Shown one piece after another: positions 27,611-60,146 of a stretch of DNA of 64,000 nt (position 1 is its first letter; the number at the start of each line of letters is the position of its first letter). The notes beneath the pieces were generated by a model that was not told the DNA's origin, ran no database searches, and saw nothing but the letters and a program-made list of their open reading frames with translations. This stretch comes from Isurus oxyrinchus (Eukaryota), in NCBI GenBank assembly GCA_026770705.1, contig JANJGN010000152.1, positions 310,001 through 374,000 of the forward strand, given 5' to 3'. The position numbers and the translations under genes were made by a program.

Positions 27611-27789
27611 GAGGGTTGTAATCCCTGAAATTTAGAAGATTAACAGGTGATTTGATTCAAGTTTTCAGGATATTAATTGGAGCTGACAGGGCAGACAGAG
27701 GAACTATTTCCACTGGTTGGGGAATCTAGGACGAGTGAGCGGAGTCCAAACATAGAATCAGGTTCCAGCACCTTTTCAGGTAGAGAGTT

Positions 27790-28135
27790 CCAGATCCTGA
27801 TACCTCTCTGTTGGTGCAGAAACTGCTCAACTCGATGTTGAGTTCTGAAGGTGGTAAAGTGCAGAATTGAAGAATGAGCTGCTGTTCCTCGAGCTCCCAT
27901 TGAGCTTCATTGGAACAGTTCAAGAGGCCAAGGACAGAGAGGGTCAGAGTGGGAGTGGGGCGGAGAATTAAAATGACAAGTGATGGGAAGTTCAGGGTCA
28001 ACCCACAAACTGAACAGAGGTTGTTCCACAAAGTGATCACCTAATCTGTTTTTCATCTTCCCTGTGTAGAGCAGACCAGATCGTCAGCAGTTACCACAGT
28101 AACTGAGCTGCAAGAAGTACAAGTAAATCACTGTT
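27790..28135 (-). mobile_element. Penelope-like element fragment
   Basis: Minus ORF LSVLGLLNCSNEAQWELEEQQLILQFCTLPPSELNIEL, the Penelope C-terminus. Confidence 0.75.
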
Positions 28136-28259
28136 TGTTTCATCTCAAAAACCTCAAACGTAACCTGAAGAAATATACTTCATTTGGTGATGAAAGGATA
28201 CAAGGTAAAGCAAACCGACTGCCAGAATATTAAATTTCACCCAAGCCATAAAGATTGTT

Positions 28260-29195: not shown

Positions 29196-29199
29196 TCAG

Positions 29200-29720
29200 C
29201 AGAAATAAACCCCAATGTCAAAGTCAACATGGTTCAGTCCTCAATGTGATTAACAGCAGCAATAACAGCAGAATCCAACCCCTGCTGTCACTTGTCAACT
29301 CCCTGGTTGGCCTGCAGGTTAGATTAATGAGTGAAGCTCTTTTCACACACGGAGCAGGTGAACAGACCCTCCCCAGTATGAACTCGCTGGTGTTTCAGCA
29401 GATCCCTTGTGCTTTTGAATCTCTTCTTGCAGTCAGAACATTTAAACAGTCTCTTGTAAGTGTGCACTCCCTGCTGTGACTGAAAGTGTGATATAAATCC
29501 TTTCCCACACTCAGTGCAGGAGAACAGCCTCTACCCTGTGTGACTGTGGCATTGAGTTTCCAGATCTGACAGATAATTGAATTGCTTTCAAGATCCCTGC
29601 ATGGACACAGTTTCTCTCCAGTGTGATTGCACTTGTGTTTTAACAAAAGAGATGATCAGTGAAGCCTTGACTATGCACAGAACACATATCTGGTTTCTCC
29701 CTGCTGTAAATGGTGCTCTT
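29200..29720 (-). pseudogene. Degenerate C2H2 zinc-finger pseudogene (minus strand)
   Basis: Minus strand HTGE-linked fingers ([26 protein letters not shown]) with frameshifts. The 3' UTR is homologous to that of the 30047-31291 gene. Confidence 0.8.
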
Positions 29721-30046
29721 TGTGGGGCTGAAGCGAGTCACAGTCCCAGTGACCAGGAGAGAAAATAATTGACTCATTTATTTTATTCTCACTCTGCAGA
29801 CAGGAGCTGGAGAACTGAACCCAGCGAGAGGAGAGAGAGGGAGAAAACTGGGAGTGGAGGAAAGAAATGCTGGAGATGGTGACATGGGTTTGGATTTCAG
29901 CCCAGGGAGGAGGGAGAGTGTGTGGGGTGGGGACTTACAGCTTTGGGGGAACTAGGGAGGAAAAAATATTCCATAGAAACTAGAATTGTCTGCTCTGAAT
30001 TTCTATCCTGGACTGACAGGAATGACTTTGTAAACTCCTTTTCCAG

Positions 30047-31291
<1,245 letters not shown>

Positions 31292-32714
31292 TCTGCATTA
31301 TTTCAAACAAATAGTGTGTTGTGCCCTTGATTTCTCTAACAGTGACCTTAGTCCCACAGCATGTCTCCCACCTTCGATGTGTGAAGAGACCATCACACCT
31401 ATAAACCTGGTTTAAATTTAAATCTGAATCCACTCAGCAAATTAATTTAACAAAAGGTGAAGAGCAAACCGATCACATCAAATAATTGGCAAAAAGCCAG
31501 AGGGGAGATGAGAAAAGATGTTTTACTGAGCGAGTTGTGATTTGGAACACACTGCCTGAAAGGTGAACGCAGACTCTATAGGAGCTTTCAAAAGAGAATT
31601 GAATCTCTAGCTACAGGGCTCTGGGGAAAGGGCAGGGGAGTGGGACTAATTGGCAGCTCTTTCAAAGATGACCCGGCTCTTTATGCAGTTCTATATTGAC
31701 AAGTGACAGTCTGATGTCCAACTCCCCAAGAATAAGGAACAATCTTGGCTCTCTGAAAACCCCTTCAGCTCTTTGTAAGTGTCTTTCAAATGCTGACAGA
31801 TTCTTTCTTTCTTTTGAAATTCCATTTCCATGTTAGGGGATGCAGACAGTGCTGGACATAGAGGGAGCAGCAAACCTGGTTCAGAATGGACACGCTGGGT
31901 TCGTGTTTGGCCTGGCTTTCTGCTGAGCATGTGCTGGGGCCCCGTGGGCCTTCACTGCTCAGGGACATTTCTGAGTATGTCATAGGCACCATTAGATATA
32001 GGAGGAGGCCATTCAGCCCCTCAAACCTGCTCCACCAGTTAGGTCAGGGTTGATTTCTATCCGAACTCCATTGACCTGCCTTTTAAGATGATGTTGTCCC
32101 CTTGTTCTCAATTCCCCCACCAGAGGAAATAGCTTCTCTACTTCGACCCGATTGGCTCATCAAGCAGATTTTGATCATTTCCCCTTAATCCAGAACAACT
32201 GTATAAGTTTATCTTTACATTCCAGGAGCAGCAGTACTCCTGGAATTGTTTATCACAAGGAATTCACTACATCCGTGATCTGGCCCTGCTCAAACCATAA
32301 CCACAAGGATATCTGTGCATTACTCCAATTGTGAGCACAAGGCTGTGTCACTATCACACACAGATACCGTTTCCTTGGTTCACATCTCCATACAAAGACC
32401 AGCTCTTTACGCATATCCCCTTTCTACACAATTGCAGGAGACATGAGCAAGGATGTGAGGCTCATTAATATACACCCATATTTCATAACAGCAAAGGTTC
32501 CACTGGGACAAAGGTTCAGTCATTTTCCATCACAGGCACATACAGAGCAGTACATGAGCACACTGAAAGTTTAAGAGACTTTCATCAGCTTGCAGGCTCC
32601 TGTTAAATACAGAGCAGTACAGGAGCACATTGACAGTCTAACAGAGTCTCAACAGCCTGCAGGCTCCTCTCCAATACATTTACTGAGTGGATTTCAATTT
32701 AAACCAGGTTTTCA

Positions 32715-33262
32715 GATGTGATGCTCTAGTCACACATTGGTCGCCACATTACCAGAAGGATATGGAGGCGTTGGAAAGGGTGCAGAGGACGTTTACCAGG
32801 ATGCTGCCTGGTCTGGATGTTATTAGCTATGAGGAGGGGTTGGAGAAACTCGGATTGTTTTCACTAGAGCAACGGAGATTGAGGGATGACTTGATAGAAG
32901 TTTACAAAATTATGAGTGGCATGGACACAGTAGATAGTCAGAAGCTTTTTTCCCAGGTGGAAGAGTCAATTACTAGGGGACATAGATTTAAGGTGAAAGG
33001 AGTAAACTTTAGAGGAGATGTGTGGGGCAAGTTTTTTACGCAGAGGGTAGTGAGTGTCTGGAATTCGCTGCCAGAGGAGGTAGTGGAAACAGGTACGATA
33101 GTGGTGTTTAAGAGGCAGTTTGACAAATATATGAATAGGATGGGAATAGAGGGATACGGACACCAGAAATGCAAAATGTTTTAGTTGACAGGCAATGTGA
33201 TCGGCGCAGGCTTGGAGGGCCGAAGGGCCTGTTCCTGTGCTGTACTTTTCTTTGTTCTTTGA
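32715..33262 (+). mobile_element. CR1 LINE 3' fragment
   Basis: WSPHYQKDMEALERVQR..LGLFSLEQRRLR..FFTQRVV. Confidence 0.9.
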
Positions 33263-33524
33263 GATGCTATGGTACACACACTAAGTCCAGTAGCTGAACT
33301 AATTAACAGACTGAGTTTGGGTTTCCTGATCCAGTGCATGTTACTGATACCTTCCCTGGATCTCAAGGCTAAGACAGACACTCGGGAAGGTATGGGGAGC
33401 TGGGACTTGTCTATGAGAGTAACTGAAGGTCTGAGAACTGAAATAATCTAAAGTTAGAAAGGAGAAAAGGTTCAGTCCTGGACGTGATTCTTAGCAGCAA
33501 CAACTGATTCTAACTTTGTCAGTA

Positions 33525-35249
33525 ACATGTGAAGCCACTAATGTTTCAGCAGGCTGTAAGACTGAGTAAATCGCTTCTCACACACACAGCAGGTGAACAG
33601 TTTTTCTCCAGTGTGAACTCGCTGGTGTCTCAGCAGGTGGGATGAATCAATGAATCCTTTCCCACACTCAGAGCAGGTGAACAGCTTCTTCCCGCTGTGA
33701 GTACATTGATGCCTCAGCAGGCCAAACGAATGAGCGAATCCCTTCCCACACTCGGAACAGAGGAACGGCTCTCCCTGGTGAGGGTGCGTTGGTGTTTCAG
33801 CAGGTCATTGCTTCTTTTAAAGCTCTTTCTGCATTCAGAACATTGAAAAGGTCTCTTATCAGTGTGAACGCGTTGGTGTTCAGTGTAGTAGGACAACTGA
33901 GCAAATTTCTTGCTACACACAGAGCAGGTGAACAGCCTGTCCTCAGTGTGAGTGCGTCAGTGTCTCTGGAGGCTGGATGACTCAGTGAAACCCTTCCCAC
34001 ACACAGGGCATGTGAACCACCTCTCCCCAGTGTGAATAGTCCAGTGTCTCAGCAGGTGTTGTAAACAAGTAAATCTCTTCTTGCACACGGGGCAAAGGTA
34101 CGGCCTCTCCCCAGTGTGAACACGCTCGTGTATCACAAGGTGGGACAAACGAGGGAAACTCTTCCCACACATGGAACAGAGGAACGGCCTCTCCCCGGTG
34201 TGAACTCGCTGGTGCTTCAGCAGATAGCAGGATCGAGTGAATCCCTTCCCACACAGCGAGCAAGTGAATGGCTTCTCCCCAGTGTGCACCCACTGGTGCT
34301 TCAGCAGGTCAGCTGGCTGAACGAATCCCTTCCTACATGCGGAGGTGAACGGCCTCTCTCCAGTGTGAATACTCTCGTGTGTCAAAAGGTGTGAAAATCG
34401 AGTGAATGTCTTCCCACACACAGAGCAGAGGAATGGCCTCTCCCTGGTGTGAACACGCTTGTGTGTCAGAAGGTGAATTGAATGAGTGAATCTCTTCCCA
34501 CACACGGAGCAGGGGAACGGCCTCTCCCCAGTGTGAATGCACCGTTGTCTCAGCAAATTAATGCTTCTTTTGAAGGTCTTCTCACATTCAGTACATTTAA
34601 AAGGTCTCTTTTCTGAGTGGACCAATTGGTGCTCAGTGTAGTGGAAGGACTGAGCGAATCTCTTCCCACACTGGGAGCAGCTGAACGGCCTGTCCTTGGT
34701 GTGAACTTGCTGGTGCTCAGTGAGATGCACTGACTTGCTGAATGACTCCCCACATTGGGAGCAGCTGAATGGCCTCTCATGTGTGTGAAGGAGCTGGTGA
34801 TCCACGAGGCAGGAGGACAGCCTGAACCTCTTCCCACAGTGGGAGCAGCTGAACGGTCTCTCGTCAGTGTGAACTTGCTGGTGTTGGGCCAGTTCCTTGG
34901 AGATTTCAAAGCTTTTCTCAGAGTCAGAGTATTGAAGAGGATCCTCATAAATGTGATCAAGCTGGTGTGCCAGCCGGTTGGATGAACACATGAATTTCTT
35001 CCCATACACTGAGCAGGTGAACGGTCTCTCGCTATTGTGAGTTCGCTGTCGTGTCAGCATGTTTACCAGCTCCATCAATCCCTTCCTACAGGAGGAGCAG
35101 GTAAGCAGCCTCTCACCAGTTTCCAGCTGAGGCAGTCAATTAAATCCTTTCAGATGTATGAATCTTCAGATTCCAATGAACCGATTGACCCTGTCAGACG
35201 TGAGGTTTGGTTTGCTTTATCTGACTGCAAATCCTCCTCCTCTATTATC
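33525..35249 (-). pseudogene. KRAB-less tandem C2H2 zinc-finger gene, probably decaying (longest ORF 33957..35078, 373 aa, about 13 fingers; more fingers beyond a premature TGA)
   Basis: Minus acceptor tttacag| at 35250. HTGERPF-linked fingers, several with lost Cys/His (CSVYGK, QYSDSEK, FTSACRK). The array continues in frame past TGA 33959-33957, then has a frameshift near 33770 and a TAG near 33540. A truncated product cannot be excluded. Confidence 0.8.
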
Positions 35250-35739
35250 CTGTAAAGTAAGTTACATACAGGCCATTCAGTCTATCCAGTTTGTACTGGA
35301 GTTTCTAGTCCACACAAGTCTCCCCCATTCTGCCAATCCCATCTCAGGCTTTCAGCTCATCTTTCTAATCCCTTTTCTCCCATGTCCTCATCTAGTTTCC
35401 TTCTAAAAATATCTGTTATTTTTCTTGACCACATCCAGTAGTACTGAGTTCCACATTTTCATAGCTGTCTGAGGAACCATATATCTCCTGTGTTCTTCTT
35501 GGATTTATTTGTGTCTATTGTGTATTCATGACCCCCAGTATTGGTTAGACCTGCAAGTGGAAACATTCTGTCCACGTCTACCTGCCCAACATAATCAGAA
35601 TTTAAAGACCTAGTTGACAAACATATCTCTCGATTTGAGTTTGCTGTGTGTAAATCTTTCCCATTTAACCCCCGGAAAGGGAGTTTGCAAAATCCATCCC
35701 TGTCAGTCCAGGATAGGAATTCACCACATTCTCTCAGGT

Positions 35740-36460
35740 AAGCAAGTAGTTAGGAAAGCTAAAGAACGTTATTGTTTATTGTGAGGGAAATCGCATACAA
35801 AAGTAGGAAGGTTATGCTTCAGTTGTACGGGACACCCATGAGAGATCTTGTAGTGTAGAGTATTTGAAGAAGGATATATATGCATTAGAAGCAGTTCCGA
35901 GAAGGTTTACCAGATTAATATCAAGAATGGGCAGATTACCTTAAGAGGAAAGGTTGGACAGGCGAGGCTTGTGTCCACTGAAGTTTAGGAGAGTAAGAGG
36001 GGACTTGATTGAAACTTTTAAGATCCTGAGGGGAGGGTCTGATGAAGGGTCATACGGACTTGAAACATCAACTGTATCCCCCTCTACAGATGCTGTCAGA
36101 GCTGCTGAGTTTTTCCAGGTATTTTCATTTTTGTTCAAGATCTTGAGGGGCCTTGACAAGGTAGATGTGGAGAGGATGTTTCCTCTTGTGGGAGAATCTA
36201 GAATTAGGGGTCATTGATGAGGAGTTTTTTTCACTCAGAGGGTTGAGTCTTTGGAGCTCTCTTCCTCAAAAGGCGGTGGAAGCAGTCTTTTACTTTTAAG
36301 GCAGAGCTACATAGATTCCTAACAAGCAAAGTGGGTGGAAGGTTATCGGGGGTAGGCAGGAATGTGGGGTTTAGGTTACAATCAGTTCAGCCATTATCTT
36401 ATTGAATGGTGGAGCACGCTGGTGGGGACGAAAGGTCTGCTCCTCATTCACATGTTCCTA
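35740..36460 (+). mobile_element. CR1 LINE fragment in the ZNF intron, with a nested short Penelope-type piece (about 36035-36135)
   Basis: LKFRRVRGDLIETFKILRG..LDKVDVERMFPLVGESR, interrupted by tctgatgaagggtcatacggacttgaaac... Confidence 0.8.
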
Positions 36461-36930
36461 CAGCCAGAGACGGTGATGACAGCGCATGCGCCTTGCTACA
36501 AGTTGCCCCCTAGAAAGATGGTGACTGCGCATGCGTCCTGCTGCTCTTTGCCCCCGATAAAGGTGGACCCGTTACCCCGGGTTTCAAAACCGGGGAAGGG
36601 CCCATAGATGCCGCTCGGTGTAGCCGCAGGCCGATGGCCTCTTGGTTGGCATTTCTCGCCTACAATGGGTGTTTATGAAACCTTTCCGCCCACCCACGGC
36701 CCCTAATACCGCCACAGTGTGGTCTAAAACTCACCGCCTGAAAATGGAACAAACAAGCGTCCGTCCAATGACGTCACTCGCACTGCGCATGCTCCTAATC
36801 ACTGCCCGTCTGGTTGACGGCAGCTGCGGACCAATAGGAAGAGGGGGCGGGACTGTGTCGGAGACTAACCAATCGGAGTGAAAGAGGGGCGGGGCTAAGC
36901 CCAGATCTCCCTCATTGGCTGAAACTGCAT
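36460..36930 (-). promoter_or_regulatory. Promoter and non-coding first exon of the minus-strand ZNF gene
   Basis: CRE TGACGTCA at 36769-36776, several CCAAT boxes, GC boxes (GGGGCGGGGC about 36886-36895), NRF1-like GCGCATGCG, YY1-like AAGATGG, and a minus-strand donor caggcg|gtgagt at 36735/36734. Confidence 0.75.
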
Positions 36931-37669
36931 CATTTTGGAAGCTGATTTGTCTCAAACTCCAGGAGAAAACTGGACCTTTCCGTTTGTGGCTTTAAACAGA
37001 TGAAACCCTGTGGGTGTGAAGAACATTTCAACATTTTTTAGTGAACTGCGGTAACATGAGGATAAAAGCACAATCAATTCAAGGGCTGACTTAAAGCAAT
37101 AACTGGGCAGAGAGGGAATGTCACCTTCAGACCAAGGAGAGTCCCTGGTTTCAATAAATGAACTGGCAAGACAAGTTAGGACAGGTTAGGGATAAGGGTG
37201 ACTTTCAAAACAACACAGATTATAAAGAAACAACTGATCTCAAAGACAATCTCTGGCAGTGCTAACAGAAATTAACAATCAGACCTTAAGGGGTTAAAAG
37301 ATATGTAAAAGCAAATTACTGAGGATGCTGGAAGTCTGAAATAAAAATATAAGTGCTGGAAAAACTCAGCAGTTCTGGCAGCATCTGTGAAAAAAGAAAC
37401 AGAGTTAATGTTTTGAATCCAATATGACCCTTCTTCAGAACTGAATTAAATTATATATGTTTTCTATGTTAAATAATCAATTTAAAATCTGGAACTCGGA
37501 TAGGGATGTGGATTGGTTTTCGGTGGGAAGATCTGGATTAGTATCTTACTCCAGGAAGCCTTAAAGTCAGAGTGGCAGTTTTTCAGAACTGAATCCTGTG
37601 AGAGCAGCAATCCCATTGCTATCTGTTAGTAAGACCAATGAAAGTGTTTAAAGTGGAGACATTGGACAT

Positions 37670-38290
37670 TTTTTTATTCATTAATGGGATTTTAGCATTA
37701 AGTATTTATTGCCCATCCCTAACTGCCCTTGAAGAAGTGGTGGTGAGCCAACATATTGAACTGTTGCAGTCCATGTGGTGTAGGTACACCCACAGTGCTG
37801 TTAGGGAGGGAGTTCCAGGGTTTTGACCAAATGACAGTGAGGGAACGGTGGTATATTTCCAAATCAGGATGGTGAATGGCTTGGAGGGGAACTTCCAGGT
37901 GGTGGTATATCCATGCATCTGCTGCCCTTGTCCTAGGTAGTAGAAGTCACAGGCTTGGAAGGTGTTGTCAAAGGAGCCTTCGTGAGTTGCTGTGGTGCAT
38001 CTTGTAGATGGTACACATTGCTGCCATTGTGCATTGGTGGTGGACGGAGCGAATGTTGAAGGTGGTGGGTGGGCTATCAATCAAGCAGGCTGGAAGGTGT
38101 GGAAAATCTTGAATGTTTTTGGAGTTGCACTCATCCAGGGAAGTGGAGAGTATTCCATTACATTCCTGACTTGTGCCTTGTAGAATATGGACAGGCTTTG
38201 GGGAGACAGGAGGTGGGCTATTCTGCACAGAGTTCCCAGCCTCTGACCTGCTCTTGTCACCACTGTATTTATATGGCTAGTCCCGTTCAG
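37670..38290 (-). mobile_element. LINE 3' fragment of a second family (also at 8330-8530, 45780-46390, 60690-61070)
   Basis: YKAQVRNVMEYSPLPWMSA..TIYKMH motif. Its 3' tail is shared with the SINE family. Confidence 0.8.
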
Positions 38291-38859
38291 TTTCTGGAGG
38301 ATGATGCACACAAGGAAGCTGTGAACAATCTGAGGGTCATAGTGAGGGGAAAGAAAGGTATCTGGAAAACAACAGACTCTTAATGTTGTTCCAGGAGAAG
38401 TGAGGTCTGGTTGTGCAGATAAAAACAGAAAATGCTGGAAAAACTCAGCAAGTCTAGCAGCATCTGTGGAGAGAGAGGCAGAGTTAACGTTTTGAATCCA
38501 TATGACTTCTTCAAAGCATCATATGGACTCGAAACGTTTACTTTGTTTCTCTCTACACAGATTCTGCCAGCCCTGCTGAGTTTTTTCCAGCATTTTCTGT
38601 TTTTATTTCAGATTTTCAGCATCCGAGTATTTTGCTTTTATTTTACTGGTTGTGCAGATGTCAGGTTTTACACAGGACGTGGTCAGCCTGTGGTTTCACC
38701 CTGTATGAGGAATCCCTGAATGGTACCATTCAAATCGCTCGATGGAACATCATCTGCTTGGAGAGGATGGTTTGTGTTACAGCTAATGAGAAGCAGCACA
38801 CACAGGCACACAAACTCATACACATGCACACCCACATACTCAGACACACACACACACAC

Positions 38860-39040
38860 ATTTCGCTGATGTGTTGGAAGTTTAAATGACTGAGTGAATC
38901 CTTTCCGACACATGGAGCAGGTGAACAGCCTCAGCCCAGTGTGAACTGCCGCTGGAGATTGGATGAATCAGTGAATTCAATCTTATGATTGAACAGACAA
39001 ATGGCCTTTACGTAGTGTAAATGTCCTGGTGATTCATCAC
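38860..39040 (-). pseudogene. C2H2 zinc-finger fragment
   Basis: Minus strand VHTGLRLFTCSMCRKGFTQSFKLPTHQR. Truncated upstream by a CR1 insertion. Confidence 0.7.
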
Positions 39041-40510
39041 AGAATCATACAGTGCAGAAGAGGCCCTTTGGCCCATCAAGTCTGCACCGACACGTGAGAA
39101 ACACCTGACCTACCTACCTAATCCCATTTATCAGCACTTGGCCCATTGCCTTGAATGTTATGACGTGCCAAGTGCTCATCCGGGTACTTTTTAAAGGATG
39201 TTAGGCAACCTGCCTCCACCACCCTCCCAGGCAACGCATTCCAGACCGTCACCACCCTCTGGGTAAAAATGTTTTTCTTCACATTCCCCCTAGACCTCCT
39301 GCCCCTCACCTTGAACTTATGTCCCCTCGTGACAGACCCGTGAACTAAGGGGAACAGCTGCTCCCTATCCACCCTGTCCGTGTCCCTCATAATCTTGTAC
39401 ACTCGATAGGGTGGCCCCTCAGTCTTCTCTGCTCCAACGAAAACAACCCAAGTCTATCCAACCTCTCTTCATAACTTAAATGTTTCATCCTAGGCAACAT
39501 CCTGGTGAATCTCTTCTGCACCCCGTCCAGTGCAATCAGATCCTTCCTATAATGTGGCAACCAGAACTGCACACAGCTGTGGCCTCACTAAGGTTCTATA
39601 CAACTCCAACATGACCTCCCTACTTTTGTAATCTATGCCTCGATTGATGAAGGCAAGCGTCCCATATGCCTTTTTCACCATCCCACTAACATGCCCCTGT
39701 GCCTTCAAAGATCTATGGACACACATGCCAAGGTCCCTTTGTTCCTCAGAACTTCCTAGTGTGACGAAGTTCATTGAATACTTCTTTGTGAAATTACTCC
39801 TTCCAAAGTGTATCACCTCGCACTTTTCAGGGTTAAATTCCATCTGCCACTTATCTGCCCATTTGACCATCCCGTCTATATCTTCCTGTAGTCCAAGACA
39901 CTCAACCTCACTTTTAACCACCCAGCCAATCTTTGTGTCATCCACAAACTTACTAAACTTACCCCCTACATAGTCATCTATGTCATTTATATAAATCATG
40001 AATAATAGGGGACCCAGCACAGATCCCTGTGATACGCCACTGGACCTTGGCTTCCAGTCACTAAAGCATCCTTCTGTCATCACCATTTGTCTCCTACAAC
40101 TAAGCCAATTTTGAATCCACCTTATCAAATTACCCTGTATCCTATGTGTATTTGCCTTCTTTATAAGTCTCCCATGTGGAACCTTGTCAAAGGTGTTGCT
40201 GAAATCCATATAAACTGCATCAACTACACTACCCTCATTGACACACCTGGACACCTCCTCAAAAAATTCAATCAAATTTGTTTGACATGACGTCCCTCTG
40301 ACAAAGCCATGCTAACTATCCCTGATCAAACCTTGCCTCTCCACGTAGAGATAGGCACTCTCCTCCAGAGCTTTCTCCAATAGTTTCCCTACCACTGACG
40401 TGATATTCACTAGCCTGTATTTCCCTGGCTTATCTCTACAACCCTTCTTATATAGCGGAACCACATTAGCTGTTCTCCAGTCCTCTGGCACCACCCCCGT
40501 GGCCATACTT
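39040..40510 (-). mobile_element. CR1 LINE (young family), 5'-truncated
   Basis: VPEDWRTANVVP, DFSNTFDKVPH, GVSQGSVLGP, FVDDTK, RPQL. Same 3' tail as 17420 and 28260. Confidence 0.95.
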
Positions 40511-40519
40511 AAGTTTCTT

Positions 40520-41705
40520 AGTTAACTATGGATTGTGCATCCTTCTCATAGAGTCATTCTTTGTCAATGGAATACATTGTTGTTCAGAGTTATGAATTAA
40601 ATATCTGCCACTCCCGATCTACAGCCTTATCTTTCAACATATTGTTCCGGTCCACTGCAGCCAACCTCTGAGTTCATCCCTTTATCGTTGCCTTTATTTA
40701 ACTTTAAGACCCAGTTTCAGACCTAGAGGTTCCTCATCGTCAAATTGAATGTAACATTCTTTCATGTTATGATCACTCTTGACTAGATGATGTTTTAGTA
40801 TGAAATCATTCCTAATTCTGCCTCATTACACATTTACTTGCCTGTTTCCTCATTAGTTCTAGAATATATTTTTGGATTAAACTGTCCTGATTATATTCAA
40901 TGAACTCATCCTCCGCCAATTCGCTTTGTCCAATTTATAAGCAAATTTACACTTACTCATGATTATTGAAGTACTTTTCTCACAAGTCCCCATGTTTTCT
41001 TCTGTTACTATCAATCCTACCACATCACTACTGTTCGATGACATATAAAATACTCCCAACAGTGGCTTCTTGGTCTCACTTGTATTATCTCCAAACAAGC
41101 TGATTCCACATCTTCATCTTCTGAGCCAAGATAATTTCTCATGACTGTGCTGATTTCAGCCTTTATTACTATACCTAACCCGTGACTTTTTCATTTTGTT
41201 CTATCCTTCAGAAATGTCAAATACTCCTGAATATTCAGTCCCCTGCCTTAAGAATGTTGCATACACATCCCTGTATTGGCTGTGATATCATACACCTTTA
41301 TTTCTAATTGTTCCATCAATTCATACATCTTGTTACAAATGCTGAAGCATTCAGATAAAGAGCTTTTAAATCTGTCTTTCTGTCAGTTTTCCCTACTCTG
41401 ACCCTGCTTGCTGTTGCACTCTTATATTTTATCATTCTGTTCCTTCCTATCACACTCTGGTTATCATTACCCATATTGCTAGCCTGCACTATTGCCTTGT
41501 CCTTTCCCGTCAACTTTCTAACTTTCCCTTCATCCCAAACCTGCCCCCTCCTCCACTATTTAGTTTAGAGCCCACTCTACAGCCCTATCTATGTGATTCA
41601 CCTGGGCACTGATCCCAGTGTGGTTCAAGTGAAGGCCACCCCAATGCTATGGTTCCCTCTTTCCCCATTGTTGGTGCTAGTGGCCCATGAATCAAAATCC
41701 ATTTC
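40520..41705 (-). mobile_element. Older CR1 LINE 5' part (ORF1 end and APE endonuclease), degenerate
   Basis: Minus strand LKALYLNAS.., LLGVFYMSSNSS (APE-like), and a SDHN-like motif. Confidence 0.6.
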
Positions 41706-41709
41706 TACC

Positions 41710-41990
41710 AACTGAGGGAGGGTCTGTACTGAGGGAGCGCTGCACTGTTGGAGAGTAAGCACTGAGGGAGCACTGCACTATCAGAGACGCAGAAGTGAGG
41801 GAGAGCTGCACTTTTGAAGAGTCAGTAATGAGGGAGTGCTGCACTGTCGGAAGGTCAGTACCAATGGGGAGCTGCACTGTTGGAGAGTCAGTAATGAGGG
41901 CGTGCTGCACTGTCAGAGTGTCAGTACTAAGGGAGTGCTGCACTGTCGGAGGGTGAGCACTGAGGGACTGCTGCACTGTTGAACACAGGT
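41710..41990. repeat. 33-bp minisatellite (gagggagtgctgcactgtcggagggtcagtact)
   Basis: About 8 tandem diverged units, followed by a SINE-like body to about 42275. Confidence 0.85.
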
Positions 41991-42889
41991 GAGACGTTAA
42001 ACCACCACTTCGTTTGCTTTCTCTGGTGGATATAAAAGATCCCATGGCCGCTATTTGGAAGCCAAGAGGAGAAAGTTCTCCCCAGTGTCCTGGGGCCAAT
42101 ATTTATCTCTCTTCCAATGATCTGGGTCATTATCACGTTGCTCTTTGTGGGAGCTTGCTGTGCACAAAATGGCGTCTCATTACAACAGGGACAACATTTG
42201 AACAAGTGATATAATTGGCTGTGATGTTCTTTGGGACGTTCTTAAGCTGTGAAAGGCGCTAGAGAAATGCAATACCTTCTATGGCTCTAGGACTGAGAGC
42301 TGGGTATTTCTGCTCTCGTCCGGGATCACTGGGTCTAAAAGTTGTCCCCCTTGCTAATTACCTGCCTAAGATTAGCTAAGCTGTAACTAATTACTTCATC
42401 TGCTTGAAGGGGAAAATACTTGCAGGGCTGTGGGGGGAAGAGCAGGGGGGACAGTTGGACTAATTGGATAGATCTTTCAAAGAGACTGCACAGGCACGGT
42501 GGGCCGAATGGCCTCCTCCTGTGCTATAAATCTCATAAATTTGGTGGCATCCCTTCGTTGCAGGAAACCAATGGATTAAACAGATAAATGGTAAGGTGAA
42601 ACACGGTGAGACCCAGTGGTAGTCGACAGACACTTAGTGAATTTAATATTCTCTCTCCTTGTTAAATGTTTAATTCTGGCTGGACTTAGATTTCTCATTA
42701 AACCCTTACCTGCTGCTAAGAGGCGAGTGATGGATCCCCCAGGCGGGATCCCTCAACTCTTAAACCCCTCCCCAGGACTGCAATGGTTAGCGGGGGGAAT
42801 TAATTTCTGGTCTGTTGAGTTGTAATCCGATTGGGTGTCTGGCTTATTGTGAGAGAACATCAAACTGACAGGGAGAGGGATGATGTTGA

Positions 42890-43088
42890 NNNNNNNNNNN
42901 NNNNNNNNNNNNNNNNNNNNNNNNNNNNNNNNNNNNNNNNNNNNNNNNNNNNNNNNNNNNNNNNNNNNNNNNNNNNNNNNNNNNNNNNNNNNNNNNNNNN
43001 NNNNNNNNNNNNNNNNNNNNNNNNNNNNNNNNNNNNNNNNNNNNNNNNNNNNNNNNNNNNNNNNNNNNNNNNNNNNNNNNNNNNNNNN
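42890..43088. other. Assembly gap (199 N)
   Basis: Run of N. Confidence 1.
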
Positions 43089-43329
43089 AGAGTTCGGTAC
43101 AGGCAGCACCAGTGCAGCCCTGAATGATCGAGAACATCTCTCTCTGCCGGAGTGAGACTGTCCGCTATGTGGATGCTGCAGGGAAGGAAGATTGGAAGGA
43201 CACTTGCAATGAGGAACTCGGTCTCTGGACGGAGCGGAAGTGAATGTGCTATCCAATTTTCAACACCAAATTATCAAGGGGAGAAAACAGGAATGAAACA
43301 CCAGCAGCGAAAGGTTGGTGATGCAGGTT

Positions 43330-44590
43330 GATAGAGACATTTAGAAGAGCAATAAACACTTGGTTTCATTTCTAGAGGGTGAGCATAGAAAAACAGAGGT
43401 TTTGTTCTACCCTGTATCAAGAGATGGGAGCACTGTGCACGGTTCTGGCCTCCATATTATAAAAAAGGATATAGAGGCACCAGAGAAGATGCAAAACAAA
43501 TAAGATTTACAAGGATGATTCCAGATCTGAGAGGTTATAACCATCAGGAAAAACTGAACAGGCTGAGGCTCTTTTCTTCAGAAAAGAGAAGGCTGAGAGG
43601 ATGACCTGATCATGGTCCCTAACATGATGAAAGGGTTTCGAGCGGGTAGCCATAGAGAAGATGTGGAGGAGACCAGAACTGGACTGTGGGTATAGGGATG
43701 GTTAGTGGTTATCAATATAAGATAGTCATTAATAAATCCAAAGGGGAATTCAGGACAATTTACCCAGAGAGTGGGAAGAATGTGGAACACGCTCCCATAG
43801 GGAGTGGTCGAGGTGTATAGCATTTAAGGGAAAGAGTTAGGGGTGGGGGTGGTGGTAGTGGGACTAACCCGATCGCTCGTCAGAAGTTCTGGCACGGACT
43901 CGATGGGCTGAATGGTCTCCTTCAGTGCTGCACAATTGGGTGAACGGGAGCAAACTTTCAGCCAAGCTTTCTTTCTATATCCAAACTGGTTGGGTTAAGA
44001 CCTGTCAAAACCTAATTGTACCACCCTGTGATAACCCACTCCCTCTCGAAGGTGCCGCACTGCCTCCCTTGTGGGGGACGGGGGACAGCTTTGGGGAAAT
44101 CAGTACGGGGCTGGGAAATGGCTGCTGGTGCCCTCCTGCCACACTTGGTAAAGCCTGGCACCTTCACAGTCAGTTATTTGAACTGTAAATGGTTGGGCAT
44201 TGATATCGTGACACCTTCCCTACAACCATCAGGGTTGTCGCTCGAGTAAACAAGGAGAAACTGTTTCCAGTGGCAGGAGGGTCGGTGAACAGAGGGAGAC
44301 AGATTGAAGTGAATCGGGAAAAAAACCAGAGGGGGAGATGAGGGGATTTTTTTTTCTACACAGCGAGTTGTTGTGATCTGGGAAGTGCTGCCTGAAAGGG
44401 CGGTGGAAGCAGATTCAACAGGAACTTTCAAAACGGGAATTGAATAAATAGTAGAAGGGGAAATTGTGGCAGGACTATGGGGGAAAGAGCGACGTGGGGA
44501 AAGTGGGACTAATTGGATAGATCTTTCAGAGAGTCGGCACAGGCACAATGGGCTGAATGGCCTCTTCCTGTGTTGTAAGATTTTATGAAT
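43330..44590 (+). mobile_element. Degenerate CR1 LINE 3' fragments
   Basis: EHCARFWPPYYKK-like segment, agaaggctgagaggatgacctgat, and CR1 3' UTR-like tails. Confidence 0.65.
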
Positions 44591-44689
44591 CATTTATTTC
44601 TGCCCACACACTGGATTGTGCACCCTCCACCGTCACTAACTAGCACGTTTGCTTGTTTTTGTCAGTTTTATTCTGTTCTCTGTCATACC

Positions 44690-45340
44690 CGCCTCCCTCT
44701 CCTGCTCTTCAATTTTCCCTCTCCTCCTCTCCCGCTCTCCCACTCCCCCCGTTCTCTCTCTCCTGCCCTCCCGCTCTCCCACTTCCCCTGGTCTCTCTCT
44801 GCTTCTCTTCCACTTTCCCACTCCCCCTGGTCTCCCTCTCCTTCCCACCCTCTCTCCCATTCTCAGCGGTCTCTTTTTCTCTCCTTCTCTCCCACTCCCA
44901 CTCCCTGGTCTCCTTCCCTTTCTTTCTGCTCTCCCACTCCCCTGGTCTCTCTGTCTCCTTCCCTCCTGGTCTCCCTCTCCTTCCCTCCCACTGTCCCACT
45001 ACACCAGTCTCCCTCTCCTTCTCTCCTGCTATCCCACACCCCCGCTGTCTCCTCCTCTCCTGCTCTCCCATTTTTCCCGGTCTCTCTCTCCTGCTCTCCC
45101 GTTCTCCCCGGTCTCTCCTTCCCTCCCACTCTCCCACTCCCCATGGTGTCTCTCTCCTCTCCCGCTCTCCCATTCTCTCTGGTCTCTCTCTCTCTCCTTC
45201 TCTCCCACTCTCCCACTCTCCCTGGTCTCTCTCTCGTTCTCTCCCACACTCCCATTCTACATGGTTTCTCCCTCCTTGTCTTCTGCTCTCCCGTTCTCTC
45301 CAGTCTCTTTCTCCTTCTCTCCCGCTCTCCCACTCCCCAG
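44690..45340. repeat. Pyrimidine-rich low-complexity tandem repeat (ctctcccactcccc(t)ggtctc), continuing at about 46400-46900
   Basis: C/T-skewed reiterated units that generate spurious Ser/Pro/Leu ORFs. Confidence 0.9.
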
Positions 45341-48571: not shown

Positions 48572-48850
48572 ATGGCTGCTCCAAACATGGCTGCCCTGAA
48601 TGACTCGCAGATGAGGGAGCTGGGGCACTGGAGCGACTCGACCGGTGAGCAGTAGAGGCATCGCTACAATTACTACGTGGCATTGCTCAGCCTCCTGATC
48701 TTCGTGGTGGTGTTTGGCAATGTGCTGGTGTACATGGCAGTGCCCAGCGAGATGGCACTGCAGACCACCACCAACTACCTCATCATCAGCCTGGCTGTGA
48801 CAGACCTACTGGTGGCCATGCTGGTGATGCCCTGGGTCATCTATCTAGAG
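48572..48850 (+). pseudogene. DRD2: Dopamine D2-type receptor pseudogene, coding exon 1 (N-term, TM1, TM2)
   Basis: MAALNDSQ...[71 protein letters not shown] at 48653-48655 and donor mutated to GC. DRD2 versus a D2-like paralog is not resolved. Confidence 0.9.
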
Positions 48851-53095: not shown

Positions 53096-53205
53096 GTGGT
53101 TGGCGAGTGGCGTTTCAGCTGGGTTCACTGTGACATCTTTGTGACACTGGATGTGATGCTGTGCACAGCCAGAATCCTCGACCTGTGTGCCATCAGCATT
53201 GACAG
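53096..53205 (+). pseudogene. DRD2: D2-type receptor pseudogene, coding exon 2 (TM3)
   Basis: 110 nt, aaag|...|gtaat. Reads [36 protein letters not shown]. Confidence 0.93.
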
Positions 53206-53587
53206 GTAATCGGAGGGCTTTCAGTGACGTTCGCCAGTGTGGAAACAGGCCATTCGGCCCATCTGTTCCATGCTAGTATTTCTCCTCCACACGAGGTCCC
53301 TCCCTCCCCATCTTCACCATATCCTCTATTTCTTTCTGCTTCGTGTGTTTATCCTGCTTCCCCCTTAAATTCATCGATGCTATTCACCTCAACCATTCCC
53401 TGGATGCGAGTTCCACATTCTCCCCAATCTTTGGGTAAAGAAGTATCTCCTGAATTCACCATTGGATTTATTTTTAGGAATGTGGGCATCTGCTGGCAAG
53501 GTCAATATCACCCTTCAAATTTTGAATGACCCGTCAGTGTTAGGGTTAGAGTCAACCACATATCTGTGGGTCTATAAAAGGGTTTTC

Positions 53588-56310
53588 TGTAGTAATTATA
53601 GTTCTGATAAATATAGGATTGTACCTTTAACCACAGAGGAGGGAAAAGAGGAGAGTGATTCTCCTGAGTATTTATGGGGGCAAATCCTACAGTTTAATTC
53701 GAAGCTTGACGACCCCCAGTGCCCCTGACTTGAAGACCCTCAGTAAATTAGTAACAATAAGGAACATTTTCAACCCAAACCCTCAGTCACAATGCAGAGG
53801 TTCAGGTTCAATTCACTGAATACAGCCCCGAGAGAGACCATTGCTACCCATGTGGCGAAAGTAAAACAACTAATGGAATATTGTGATTTTGGTGAAAGCC
53901 TGAAGGATATGCTCAGAGATCATTTTTGTCTCTGGCGTGCAAGAGGATGCTATTCAGTGAAGATTGCTGACTGAAGTGGACCTTGATTTTAAGAAAGCAT
54001 TAGAAATAGTGCTTGCGATGGAAAGTGCTGGAAGGGATTCACGAGCGATTCAAGGTGCACAAAATGGCGCCATTTTCCTAGTTGGGCAGAAATGGTCAAC
54101 TGAAAGGAGCACGAAAATCCAGGACTCCGCCGTGAAGCGGGAAACAGCCCCCAATAACCGAAAACTGAGGAACCAGTTTATTAGCAAATTTGAAAACTAA
54201 TTTTATCGACGTGGAAACGATCACACTCCTAATGATTGGCAATTTTAAAAAGTGGAATGTTATTTTTGTTGCAAAAGAGGACACATATTGAAACATTGCA
54301 AAGCGACATTAAAACAGGCTTCCAGGCAATGAACAAAGTCCAATGAAGTATATAGTGAGGAAGAGCCAGAAACAACCAATTCTGACATTTAATCCTTGTT
54401 CAGCATGAGAGTTGGGAAGGCAGAGCCAGTCACTGTCACTTTACAGGTGAATGGGAAATTCTTAATAATGGAAGTAGACATTGGTGCTTCTATCACTGTA
54501 GTAGGAGAACACACTTTCAAATATTTAAATAAAAGTGCTCAACAATTAAATTTGGAACAAACGGCTACCAAGTTGAAAACGTGCACAGGCGAAGAAATCC
54601 AGGTAAAATATATCACCAGAGCACCTGCTTATTATAGACACCAAACAGCACAACTACCAGTGATGGTATTAGACCAAGCCTTCTAAGTCGAAATTGGTTG
54701 AGGAAAACTAACCTTGATTGGCCAGTGAGATTTCAAAAGGAAGCAGAAATAGTTCCTGAGTTGAAGAAGGAACAAGTCAAGGCCCTTCAGAAAGAGCCTG
54801 GAAAGTCCAAGGACCGCAATTGGATGAAAATGGAGTGTGTAGCTATTCAGCAACCTGAAGAAATGAAGACTGTTTTAAACAACGACATGGAAGAACAGCA
54901 AAATAAACTCAAGGCGACTCTGCTGAAATAGAGTTCAAGTTGAAGCGAATGAGTTTCGCACAAAGAAAAGAAAAACCCTGTTGAAAGACCCTCATACACT
55001 ACAAGGATCCCTCAGGTCAAAATTTGTACCTCTGGAAAATTACAAAGAGAAGCAGGAAGAATTTAACGTCACCATGAACAAACTGAAGAACCAATTGGCA
55101 CAGAAGATGCAGCAATGTTCAAGGTTCCAGGAGGAAGCCAACAGATACATGAAAGAGACAGAAGAGCTGAAGAATCAGCTGAATGCAGCTAAAGAAACCT
55201 TGAAAGGAAAGATCGTAGAACTGTCCAAGATGCAAGTAGATAATGAAGTCATGGGTAACTCAATTAGTGAACTAAGACAAGTTGAGAAACTACCTGAGAG
55301 AAGTCTGGCCGACAGTGAAGTCAAGAGGAAGGCCAAGACTAAACTCTGTGGTAGAAAGCAGAAGACAAAAAGGAGGAAGATCTTGAAAAGACAATAAAAG
55401 GCAGGAATGAAAAAGTTAACAGGTGAATCATCGGAAACTAAACTTGCTCGTTTCCTATTTCAATACAGAACAATCCCAATTTGGAGGGGAAGGTGGAAAA
55501 AAGTCAAGGGAACCAAAAAGCGACTCCTGATTGGCATAGTCATGAGCAACAATTTACTTGGAGAAACAGTGTCTGTAAGGAATGTCGGTGGAAGACCGAA
55601 GTGGCTAGCTGGTAAAGTAAGCTCTGTAACCGGACCATTGTCATACCACATGGAAGTGGAGGGGCGGATCACCTGTAAGTATGTGGATCATTGAGGAAGA
55701 GAGATATCCCAACAAAATTATATTCCACCTGTAACCATTGCTGAACCTATGGTTCCTGTTGAAGTTGCTCAGCCAAGGACAGACGTGCCCGATGTCTCTG
55801 TTGGAGTGGAAGACACTGAACTGCCTGTATCTGATGTTAATGCAGTTCCAGAGCATGTGGTTCCTGCAAAATAATCGGAAGTCAGGAGCTGCGACGTTCC
55901 ACAGGGATCGGGAAACCATCTTAAAGACTGAACTTGTAATTTGATGACCTGTGTAAGTATTGTGATGTAGTGAGATAAATCTCCTCTAAAATACAAAAGG
56001 TACAGAAAAGTTTACAGGTGGAGTGGGAGGTGTGTGTGTGTGTGTGTGTGTGGGGCGGGGGGGGGGGTGGTGGGTGGGGGCTGCAGTAATTATAGTTCTG
56101 ATAAACGTAGGACTGTAGCTTTAAGAGTATGCCTGTGTTGTAAAATAACATGAACTGTATAAACCAATGAATTAGAAGCACGGGGACCCTCGAGGAGAGA
56201 ATTCTTCTTTCGTTATAGAGTCCTTTGCACACATGTAACTGCTGCCGTCTTGTAAATAAAGTCCAACGTTTCCACCAAGCAAAGCTGCCTAGAAAATCAA
56301 CTCTATCACA
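53588..56310 (+). mobile_element. Internally deleted Gypsy/Ty3 LTR retrotransposon (gag, protease, foreign coiled-coil insert, integrase C-terminus)
   Basis: LTR start tgtagtaattatagttctgataaa at 53588 is repeated at about 56082 after a G-rich PPT, and the 3' LTR ends ...tatcaCA at 56310. Flanks ttttc/ctttc form a near-perfect 5-bp TSD. gag (QRFRFNS, CDFGESLKDMLRD, CYFCCKRGH), protease (MEVDIGAS), integrase tail (LARFLFQYRTIP, KWLAGKV..TGPLSY). No RT or RNaseH. Confidence 0.85.
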
Positions 56311-56329
56311 CTTTCCTTCCCGAAAGTAC

Positions 56330-57060
56330 GGGTTATATTATCTAAATGGTGAGAGTTTGCAGAGCTCTGAGATGCAGAGGGATCTGGGTGTCCTAGTGCA
56401 TGAATCACAAAATGCAGGTACATCATCTAATTAGGAAGGCTAATAGAATGTTATAGTTTATTGCGAGGGGAATTGATTGTAGGGAGGCTATGCTGCAGTT
56501 TTACGGGGCACTGGTGAGACCGTATCAGGAGTACTGTGTACAGTATTGGTCACCTTATTTAAGGAAAGGTCTGAAGGCAGCAGTTCAGAGGATGTTTACC
56601 AGGCTAATACCAGGAATGCGTGGGTTGTCGTATGAGGAAAGGGTGGACAGGTTAGGCACGTATCCACTGGAATTTAGATGTGTAAGAAACATTTAAGATC
56701 CTGAGGTGTCTTGACAGGGTGGATGTGGAGAGGATGTTTCCTCTTGTGGGAGAATCTAGAACGAGGGGTCGCTGTTTAAAAATAAGGGATCGCTCTTTTA
56801 AGACAGAGATTAGGAGATGTTTTTTCTCTCAGAGGGTCGTGAGTCTTTGGAGCTCTCTTCCTCAAAAGGCAGTGGACGCAGAGTCTTTGAATATATCTAA
56901 GGCAGAGCGAGATAGATTCTTGGTTAACAAGGGTTTGAAAGGTGATTGGGGCTAGGCAGGAATGTGGTGTTGAGGTTACAATCAGGTGAGCCATGGTCTT
57001 ATTGAATGGCGGAACAGGCTCAAGGGGCTGAGTGGCCTGCTCCTGCTCATATTTCATAAT
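56330..57060 (+). mobile_element. CR1 LINE 3' fragment
   Basis: YYLNGE..QRDLGVLVH, RPYQEYCVQYWSPYLRK, FFSQRVV. Confidence 0.9.
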
Positions 57061-58638: not shown

Positions 58639-58778
58639 CTACACAGCGATTGCCATGCCAATGCTCTACAAAACCCACCTCAGCTCCAAGCAGAGAGTCA
58701 CGTTGATGATAACCATGGTCTGAGTGCTGTCTTTCGCCATCTCATGCCCGCTGCTCTTCAGGCTAAAAAACCACCCTG
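58639..58778 (+). pseudogene. DRD2: D2-type receptor pseudogene, coding exon 3 (IL2, TM4)
   Basis: ttgcag|...|gtaag. Reads [39 protein letters not shown]. W4.50 is TGA (58721-58723) and spliced DRY becomes DSY. Confidence 0.92.
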
Positions 58779-59946
58779 GTAAGCTGTGCCCATCATGAAC
58801 CCTTCTTTCACTTTTTCTTCCTCTATTGTCTCCTTCTATGGTGAGGGAGGGGCATGAGAATTCTCACAGCAGTCCCAGAGATTGGGAACTTCAGTTATAT
58901 GGAGAAACCGGAGCAGCTGGGGTTTTTCTCCTCAGAGCAGAGAAGGTTAAGGGGGAGATTTAATTGAGGCATGCAAATTCATGATAGGTTTTCACAGAGT
59001 AAATAAGGAGAAAATGTTTCCAGTGGCAGGAAGGCCGGTAACCAGAGGGCCACAGATTAAAGAGAATCAGGAAAAGAATCAGAGGAGGAGATTAGGAGAA
59101 TTTATGCTCCACACCAGCACCTGCCCACCCCCTCCTTATCTCTCCCATCACCTATTCTTTTCTCCTTCATGTGTTTATCTAGCTTCCCCCTTAAATACAT
59201 CGATACTATTCACCTCAACCACTCCCTGTGGGAGTGAGTTCCACATTCTCCCCACTCTCTAGGTGAAGAAGTTTCTCCCGAATTCCCCATTGAATTTACT
59301 GGTTGTTGTACTACGCTGATAGTGCTGGTATCTCACCACTGCCAACCATGTTGTATTATGGTGTGCAGTGGTGTCTCAATGATGAGACCTTGAGAATTGT
59401 AGATTTAAACATGAACTCTATCTATTTACAGATCTCAGGTTACTGTCATGCATGGCGCTGCTACCTCCATGCAGGCTGGTTGCAGAGTGTTCTCTCCAGA
59501 CTGTTCTCTCGGTCTGTTACCATGTGACTTTATACATCATACCGTGCGTGGTGTTATTCTCCAGTCCCACTCTAACTCTTACTCTGCTGAACACCTTTAC
59601 GTTACAGTGGCATGCCGGTACATACAACACTAGTGACTATCTTATTTTGATGACTGTCCAGTTCTGGTCTCCCACCCGCGTTACCCTCCCCCACCCCAAA
59701 AGTGGAAACAATTTCTCTAGGTTCACACTGTCAAAACTCTTTCATAGTTTTAAAAGTTTCTATCAGGTCACCCCTCAGCCTTCTCTTTTCTAGAGGAAAG
59801 AGCCCCAACCTCTTCAGTCTTGCCTGGTAGTTATAAGCTCGTAATTCGGCTGCCATCTTTGTGAACCTTTAGTTGCATATTCTCCAGTGACTCAAAGAGA
59901 GTTTTTGCAATTATGGAGACCAGGAATGTGCTCTGTCCTGTTCCAG

Positions 59947-60146
59947 ATAAAAAGAACGAGACCATCTGTGCCATCATGAACCCTTCTTTTATTTTATATT
60001 CTTCTATTGTCTCCTTCTATGTTCCCTTCATCATGACGCTGTTGGTTTATGTCCAGATTTATGCCATGCTGAGATGGAGGAGGAAGCGTGTGGCAGCTAT
60101 GAGGATTAGCATTGCCATGGAGCATGAAACCCAACCGCCCATAAAG
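59947..60146 (+). pseudogene. DRD2: D2-type receptor pseudogene, coding exon 4 (TM5)
   Basis: ttccag|...|gtcaga. Reads DKKNETICAIMNPSFILYSSIVSFYVPFIMTLLVYVQIYAMLRWRRKRV...PPIK. Confidence 0.93.

What the first reader, a model, noticed from the sequence alone, without database searches (positions are those of the whole stretch)
53588..56310. Gypsy LTR element carrying a captured UACA-like host gene fragment in place of RT/RNaseH/integrase core
Seen: after gag and protease (..LLSRNWLRKTNLDW..), at about 54820-55330, the frame becomes a coiled coil (ECVAIQQPEEMKTVLNNDMEEQQNKLK.. KDPHTLQGSLRSKFVPLENYKEKQEEFNVTMNKLKNQLAQKMQQCSRFQEEANRYMKETEELKNQL), then returns to the integrase tail near 55390. 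From memory this aligns ungapped with the UACA coiled coil (KELDTIQECIKVKYAP...F..T...LKDQL...EE...E...LK; UACA/RAI14/ANKRD24 family). Inference: retroviral-style transduction of a cellular mRNA segment into a non-autonomous element that then transposed, since LTRs, PPT and TSD are present. This may be an undescribed shark family spreading a gag-pro-coiled-coil fusion.
Basis: partly seen in the sequence, partly recalled or inferred. Interest (0 to 1): 0.75.

Follow-up and report, generated by a model that had tools for sequence, protein, structure and literature searches.

The report
Shark retrotransposon family carrying UACA fragment
This is a dead copy of an old shark jumping-gene family whose copying enzymes are replaced by a piece of the host gene UACA, likely picked up from its messenger RNA during copying and then multiplied to dozens or more sites, a known kind of gene capture on a large scale.

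Summary
The capture is real. Window 54824-55275 matches catshark UACA-like protein residues 877-991 and 1142-1178 (E 9.6e-17). It lies sense, between a Gypsy protease and an integrase tail. It is not ungapped: 150 codons are missing, and about 40 further codons match nothing.

The family claim holds. Two basking shark gene models and one unnamed protein share the deletion and the tail. In four sequencing runs the insert is as deeply covered as gag, protease and integrase. Contigs of other copies (80-87% alike) cross the protease junction and the deletion. The copy number is only bounded: dozens at least, maybe over a thousand.

Two corrections: the 5' LTR is a 43-base stub with no primer site, so this copy is dead, and no gag-pro-UACA protein was found. 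Template switching is inferred; microhomology and intron loss could not be tested.

The mechanism is published (Tan 2016). This scan noted four similar cartilaginous-fish captures on other DNA (CLIP1, RBM25, SUDS3, RBPMS2). I found no paper on the UACA case. Verdict: new member of a known kind.

The parts
53583..53587 (+). 5' target-site duplication TTTTC
   Evidence: 4 of 5 match to 56311-56315, chance 1.6%
53588..53630 (+). 43-base stub of the 5' LTR (starts TG); the rest of the LTR, the primer-binding site and the gag start are deleted
   Evidence: 5 mismatches in 43 to 56082-56124
53631..54390 (+). decayed gag, broken by stops and frame breaks; CCHC zinc knuckle 54258-54299, degenerate first knuckle 54201-54239
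   Evidence: Atlas score 0.95 to Retrotrans_gag clusters; no Pfam hit
54393..54812 (+). aspartic protease (DIG at the catalytic site, 54477) and the start of the protease-RT linker; same frame as the gag end
   Evidence: Pfam Asp_protease_2 E 9e-4, below its curated cut-off; the linker assignment is recalled
54824..55166 (+). captured piece 1 = UACA 877-991, sense, in frame with the protease end; frame break near 54927 in this copy
55167..55275 (+). captured piece 2 = UACA 1142-1178, after an in-frame loss of 150 codons that other copies share
   Evidence: bridged by other-copy contigs
55276..55397 (+). tail of about 40 codons of unknown origin, ending in a basic stretch and a stop; its start is shared by all four relatives that reach it, and the basic end and stop by basking shark P0009
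55398..55940 (+). integrase C-terminal remnant with an internal deletion near 55474 (deletion inferred from recalled Gypsy motifs)
   Evidence: Atlas 0.92, incl. a cluster 60% MLVIN_C and one 25% rve; Pfam and PDB negative
56017..56081 (+). purine tract, swollen by a GT microsatellite and G runs
56082..56310 (+). 3' LTR, 229 bases, TG...CA, TATAAA at 56158, AATAAA at 56255
56311..56315 (+). 3' target-site duplication CTTTC
53096..53206 (+). host context: exon of a D2-dopamine-receptor-like gene; the element sits sense in the following intron; the next exon has a stop, so likely a pseudogene
   Evidence: PDB D2 receptor E 2.5e-17; 7tm_1 hits at 48656, 53057, 59865; stop in the exon near 58720

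Best explanation
A decayed Ty3/Gypsy-type element carries a sense piece of the host UACA coiled coil in place of its reverse transcriptase, RNase H and integrase core; the piece was likely captured from co-packaged mRNA by template switching, and the enzyme-less form likely spread to many loci with enzymes borrowed from intact relatives. Steps: (1) capture of a longer UACA stretch plus an unidentified tail (inferred from the Scyliorhinus torazame model, which has the tail junction but keeps UACA 1137-1141); (2) in-frame loss of 150 codons in a master copy (shown as shared among copies); (3) amplification in trans (many dispersed copies shown, trans-mobilisation inferred); (4) insertion here into an intron of a dopamine-receptor-like pseudogene (shown), then neutral decay and loss of most of the 5' LTR (decay shown, order inferred). 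The cargo is most likely a passenger with no selected role.
For: UACA identity. Among 1.84 billion representatives, 7 scored E <= 0.001: one full-length ray UACA, five short UACA-like pieces and one unrelated 646-aa protein; none was named RAI14 or ANKRD24. Shared derived structure: basking shark XP_078401457 (104/155 identical) and XP_078395215 lie on contigs of different length (250 and 212 Mb) and, like unnamed P0014, carry the same 150-codon loss and tail. Many copies: mean summed contig depth over the insert is 34,000-45,000 in 4 of 4 runs, against 17,000-31,000 for gag, 11,000-43,000 for protease, 19,000-38,000 for the integrase tail and 24-257 for the flanking exon. Three variant sites in the insert are each shown by 59-109 contigs per run. 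Among 32 pieces shown of about 102,000, one 860-base contig (X5, X17; about 81-84% alike) runs from the protease into the insert, and four pieces cross the 55166 deletion. Seven distinct joints mark private deletions in other copies; four of them occur in both organisms at single-copy depth. Two of them (55180>55478, 55343>55476) tie the insert to the integrase tail. Precedent: replacement of internal ORFs by partial host mRNA, followed by further retroposition (PMC5131818, abstract, section 5 and passages).
Against: No donor DNA or intact parent element was obtained, so microhomology and intron loss are untested. The DNA around the basking shark and catshark models was not seen, so their residence in Gypsy elements is inferred. 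Contig depth is no copy number (tool caveat) and is uneven: only 1-7 contigs show variants at 54928 and 54949. None of the 32 pieces shown spans the 3' junction itself, and one joint has only 21 letters on its shorter side. Independent target-site duplications of other copies were not seen. Gag and integrase assignments rest on Atlas scores and recalled motifs, not on Pfam cut-offs.
Confidence: 0.75

Rival explanations
1. Same origin, but the coiled coil was kept because it was translated as a Gag-protease-coiled-coil fusion that helped the element's own RNA to be packaged or to outcompete intact relatives.
For: The piece is sense and in frame with the protease end (ORF 54638-54931), and the shared 150-codon loss keeps the frame. 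Two basking shark copies are open for 168 and 177 codons. The insert is as deep as gag and protease. Cis effects of translation are cited for IAP I-delta-1 in PMC10924933 (passage only). An unchecked scan note reports a second shark family with a CLIP1 coiled coil in the same place.
Against: Two in-frame events have a 1-in-9 chance on their own. No fusion protein was found. P0010 and P0015 start at the UACA methionine and P0009 inside the piece. Other scan notes show non-coiled-coil cargo (RBM25, SUDS3, RBPMS2), as random capture would give. A few open copies among hundreds are expected without selection.
Confidence: 0.15
2. The UACA piece first spread by another route (a diverged UACA paralogue, a LINE-made retrocopy, or DNA-level repair) and entered the Gypsy element later by recombination.
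For: The S. torazame model has the tail junction without the large deletion, and its context is unknown. The tail has no identified source. From memory, this part of UACA lies in one large exon in mammals, so an mRNA origin would leave no intron signature.
Against: The insert replaces pol rather than interrupting it, is sense, and shows no poly(A) at its 3' end. Other copies share the protease junction.
Confidence: 0.08
3. The copies come from segmental duplication of this locus, not from transposition.
For: The flanking exon is itself at depth about 190-260 in three runs, roughly 5-10 times single copy.
Against: The insert is over 100 times deeper than the flank, and other copies are only 80-87% alike, with private deletions.
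Confidence: 0.02

Closest known systems
LTR-mediated retrocopies of animals (Tan et al. 2016, PMC5131818; abstract, section 5 and passages read)
   Same: A partial host sequence replaces part of the internal ORFs, is mostly sense, and the chimera can retropose again as a non-autonomous element.
   Different: [quoted passage not shown] This one is old, shared between shark species, and present in dozens or more copies. The word 'shark' does not occur in that text.
Crocodilian ERV captures of nectin3 (CrocERV31) and KIT-ligand (CrocERV29) (Chong et al. 2014, PMC4299795; passages read)
   Same: A vertebrate LTR lineage carries host coding sequence through several insertions, older than a speciation, with a deletion shared by most copies.
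   Different: Those are retroviruses with six and nine copies, near-complete cargo under purifying selection, placed at env. Here it is a Gypsy element, the pol core is lost, the cargo is a coiled-coil fragment, and selection is untested.
Maize Bs1 (as reviewed in PMC13317346; passages read)
   Same: An LTR element carrying transduced host gene segments.
   Different: Plant element with three donor genes and a described chimeric gene; no product is shown here.
Central-swap defective ERVs: MusD/ETn, KoRV/recKoRV, bovine ERVK D-type (PMC10924933; passages read)
   Same: The centre is swapped for foreign sequence while the gag side and pol tail are kept; mobilisation in trans, outnumbering the helper.
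   Different: Their filler is old retroelement DNA, not a host gene.

Membership tests
Ty3/Gypsy LTR retrotransposon (Mag-like) | Two LTRs with TG...CA ends and a short TSD | tested here: inconclusive
   3' LTR complete (229 bases); 5' LTR only a 43-base stub; TSD 4 of 5
Ty3/Gypsy LTR retrotransposon (Mag-like) | gag with CCHC knuckle, then aspartic protease | tested here: met
   Atlas Retrotrans_gag 0.95; CX2CX4HX4C at 54258; Asp_protease_2 E 9e-4, below cut-off
Ty3/Gypsy LTR retrotransposon (Mag-like) | Integrase last in pol (not Copia order) | tested here: inconclusive
   An integrase-tail-like piece lies last (Atlas 0.92); Pfam and PDB negative; fold pLDDT 47
Ty3/Gypsy LTR retrotransposon (Mag-like) | RT phylogeny places it in Ty3/Gypsy | not testable with these tools
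   RT is absent; no intact relative was retrieved
Ty3/Gypsy LTR retrotransposon (Mag-like) | Mag traits: two knuckles, no gag-pol frameshift (PMC5408684 passages) | tested here: met
   Gag end and protease share one frame; one full and one degenerate knuckle
Ty3/Gypsy LTR retrotransposon (Mag-like) | Primer-binding site after the 5' LTR | tested here: not met
   The LTR stub runs straight into gag; lost by deletion in this copy
LTR-mediated retrocopy (Tan 2016) | Partial host coding sequence replaces internal ORFs | tested here: met
   About 580 bases lie between the protease end and the integrase tail; about 450 of them match UACA
LTR-mediated retrocopy (Tan 2016) | Microsimilarity at the switch points | not testable with these tools
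   No UACA DNA and no parent pol DNA were available
LTR-mediated retrocopy (Tan 2016) | Loss of introns (mRNA template) | not testable with these tools
   Exon map of shark UACA not available
LTR-mediated retrocopy (Tan 2016) | Further spread as a non-autonomous element | tested here: met
   Diverged copies share the protease junction and the deletion; their separate TSDs were not seen
UACA (donor) rather than RAI14, ANKRD24 or a generic coiled coil | Best and only significant full-length hits are UACA | tested here: met
   no direct comparison with shark RAI14 or ANKRD24 was made

The most novel reading that the evidence does not exclude
Shark Gypsy lineages have repeatedly swapped their polymerase core for host coiled coils (UACA here, CLIP1 in an unchecked scan note) because an in-frame Gag-protease-coiled-coil product gives the parasite's RNA a packaging advantage. 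The UACA form dates from before ground sharks and mackerel sharks split, came to outnumber its helper, and has seeded small expressed coiled-coil genes such as the two basking shark models.
Probability: 0.15. Interest if true: 0.72.

Novelty: new member of a known kind. Interest (0 to 1): 0.42.

Why it matters
It extends LTR-mediated gene capture, described mostly from young, few-copy cases, to an old vertebrate family in which the cargo-bearing form appears as abundant as the retrotransposon genes themselves. With many copies, several species and nested deletions, one can test directly whether captured coding sequence is selected while it transposes. It also likely explains 'uncharacterized' coiled-coil gene models in shark annotations as transposon cargo. 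The retrocopy pipeline in PMC13320880 (passages read) removes repeat-overlapping candidates and needs an exon junction, so it would likely miss such families.

Tried and rejected
No own genome is held, so no genome-wide blastn of the junctions was possible. Searching longer proteins with the gag-protease frame, stops read as X, gave 0 of 852 candidates. No relatives were found in viral or metagenome contigs: insert, integrase tail (78, 80), gag (79). The integrase tail had no Pfam or PDB hit (8, 36, 39) and its single-sequence fold was poor (pLDDT 47), so no fold search was run. The insert folds as long helices (pLDDT 82, pTM 0.38), which is uninformative. A UACA origin for the 40-codon tail was not supported: 156-806 of 1000 shuffles reached the observed scores and profile scores were negative. 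No RNA holder was listed. P0013 (646 aa, E 5e-5) was dropped from alignments as an unrelated hit. Rejected: a generic coiled-coil likeness, and UACA being derived from the element (shark and ray UACA are full length and keep the deleted part). Paper searches found nothing on this case: UACA+retrotransposon+shark gave 0 papers; the listings showed no title on it (listings only). Repbase and Dfam entries could not be searched and may already hold this family. The IAP paper (Saito 2008) is not held and is known only from its citation in PMC10924933. No supplements were read; those of PMC5131818 and PMC13320880 could list further cases. The scan index had no look-alike of this sequence or place.

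Full report
Observation. ORF 54638-54931 runs without a stop from the end of the protease into the coiled coil, and ORF 54927-55397 continues it in another frame. A search of proteins of 274-2000 aa gave 1 hit among 965 candidates, a catshark UACA-like protein (XP_038669139, E 9.6e-17). The two frames match adjacent parts of it: 20/37 to residues 874-910 and 40/73 to 914-985, then 24/60 to 1142-1195. A frameshift-aware alignment gives one frame break near 54927 and a flat loss of UACA 992-1141 at 55166. The score of 252 compares with 89 for the reversed protein and at most 118 in 300 heptad-block shuffles, so this is not a generic coiled-coil likeness.

Anatomy. From 5' to 3': TSD half TTTTC; a 43-base 5' LTR stub; gag lacking its start; one degenerate and one full zinc knuckle; protease in the same frame as the gag end; UACA 877-991; UACA 1142-1178; about 40 codons of unknown origin ending in a stop at 55397; integrase tail; G-rich tract; a 229-base 3' LTR with TG...CA ends; CTTTC. 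Gag is supported by the Atlas (0.95, Retrotrans_gag clusters), the protease by Pfam below its cut-off (E 9e-4), and the integrase tail by the Atlas only (0.92; Pfam and PDB negative). Two knuckles and no gag-pol frameshift fit the Mag clade as described in passages of PMC5408684; the RT that would settle the clade is absent. The 5' LTR stub agrees with the 3' LTR at 38 of 43 bases and runs straight into gag, so the primer site is gone. This copy, with stops and frame breaks throughout, cannot move. It lies sense in an intron of a D2-dopamine-receptor-like gene whose next exon carries a stop.

Relatives at the protein level. Of 1.84 billion representatives, 7 scored E <= 0.001: two basking shark models (XP_078401457, 168 aa, 104/155 identical to the window ORF; XP_078395215/6, 177 aa), a ray UACA, a Scyliorhinus torazame hypothetical protein (GCB69511), two unnamed pieces, and one unrelated 646-aa protein that I dropped. 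The two basking shark models lie on contigs of different length and share the 150-codon loss, as does unnamed P0014. XP_078401457 also ends in the same basic tail and stop as the window. The S. torazame model keeps UACA 1137-1141, so it lacks the big deletion. It is 32/41 identical to UACA up to 1177 and then switches to the same non-UACA tail. This suggests a longer first capture followed by deletion. If inheritance was vertical, the tail junction predates the split of ground and mackerel sharks (recalled as well over 100 million years). I could not see the DNA around these models. No protein joining gag or protease to UACA was found.

Copies at the DNA level. Twenty of 24 listed runs hold part of the stretch. 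I laid 4 of them (3 samples, organisms A and B, 50-65% of each read) at 80% likeness. Mean summed depth is 34,000-45,000 over the insert, 17,000-31,000 over gag, 11,000-43,000 over protease, 19,000-38,000 over the integrase tail, and 24-257 over the flanking exon bin. Most long pieces lie at depth 13-39. The tool warns that summed depth is no copy number. The raw ratio is 1,100-1,800; if every base were counted 31 times by overlapping short contigs it would still be 35-58. Three variant sites in the insert are shown by 59-109 contigs per run, but two sites near 54930-54950 by only 1-7.

Junctions in other copies. Of 32 pieces shown (about 102,000 not shown), one 860-base contig seen in X5 and X17 runs from the protease into the insert at about 81-84% likeness. 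Four pieces (X1 record 7, X17 record 13, X5 records 28 and 29; 82-87% alike) cross the 55166 deletion; two of these may be one locus. Among the 15 of 367 joints and 12 of 78 filled joints shown, seven mark private deletions starting in the insert. Four of them occur in both organisms at single-copy depth, which suggests old shared insertions, and two link the insert to the integrase tail. No shown piece spans the 3' junction directly. Segmental duplication (flank about 5-10 fold in three runs) cannot account for this.

Mechanism. Shown: a sense host fragment replaces the pol core; diverged copies share the junction and the deletion; the local copy decayed. Inferred: capture by template switching on co-packaged UACA mRNA, and spread in trans. 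This is the model of Tan et al. 2016 (PMC5131818; abstract, section 5, passages), in which partial mRNAs replace internal ORFs at short microsimilarities and the chimera retroposes again. Microhomology and intron loss could not be tested without donor DNA. From memory this part of UACA lies in one large exon in mammals, which would make intron loss uninformative. I put the passenger model at 0.75, a selected translated fusion at 0.15, entry by another route at 0.08 and duplication at 0.02. For the fusion: the 5' junction and the shared deletion both keep the frame, and the cargo form looks as common as the retrotransposon genes. Against it: that has a 1-in-9 chance, no fusion protein is on record, and the relatives start inside UACA.

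Comparison and novelty. The closest cases are LTR-mediated retrocopies (PMC5131818), crocodilian ERV captures with six and nine copies (PMC4299795, passages), maize Bs1 (PMC13317346, passages) and central-swap defective ERVs (PMC10924933, passages). PMC3597677 (passages) treats host-gene uptake by transposons and does not mention UACA or sharks. A search for UACA, retrotransposon and shark gave 0 papers, and the listings of seven other searches showed no title on it; repeat libraries could not be searched. Unchecked notes of this scan describe four like cases in other cartilaginous fish genomes (CLIP1, RBM25, SUDS3/RNF213, RBPMS2). If they hold, capture-and-amplify is common in this group, which makes this case less singular but the pattern more interesting.

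Verdict. A real, apparently undescribed, old multi-copy shark family: a new member of a known kind. Interest 0.42. The selected-fusion reading would merit about 0.72 and has probability about 0.15.

Noticed in passing
window 48656-48850, 53096-53206, about 58680-58780, 59865-60130 (+): Four exons of a D2-dopamine-receptor-like gene with an in-frame stop near 58720, likely a pseudogene. Its exon at 53096 is at about 5-10 times single-copy depth in three of four runs, so it may belong to an amplified receptor pseudogene set.
   Followed up: partly
window 55276-55397; P0012 residues 43-120: A tail shared by the UACA-derived fragments, longest in the S. torazame model, with no identified source: a second captured gene or a fast-diverged piece.
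   Followed up: partly
window 56097-56306, X1 record 8: A contig 98% alike to the 3' LTR at about 3 times single-copy depth stops matching 4 bases before the LTR end, although other copies of the family are mostly 80-95% alike; unexplained.
   Followed up: no
P0010 (XP_078395215.1, XP_078395216.1): Two transcript models give the same 177-aa protein, which hints at RNA support for an expressed copy in basking shark; not tested.
   Followed up: no
window 30475-34883: Tandem 84-base repeats on both strands, typical of C2H2 zinc-finger gene arrays (identity recalled).
   Followed up: no
window 39550-40311 (-) and 56336-57000 (+): An RVT_1 fragment (E 4.7e-22) and a very high-copy LINE-like 3' end directly after the element.
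   Followed up: no
window 56017-56081: The purine tract has grown into a GT microsatellite plus G runs.
   Followed up: no
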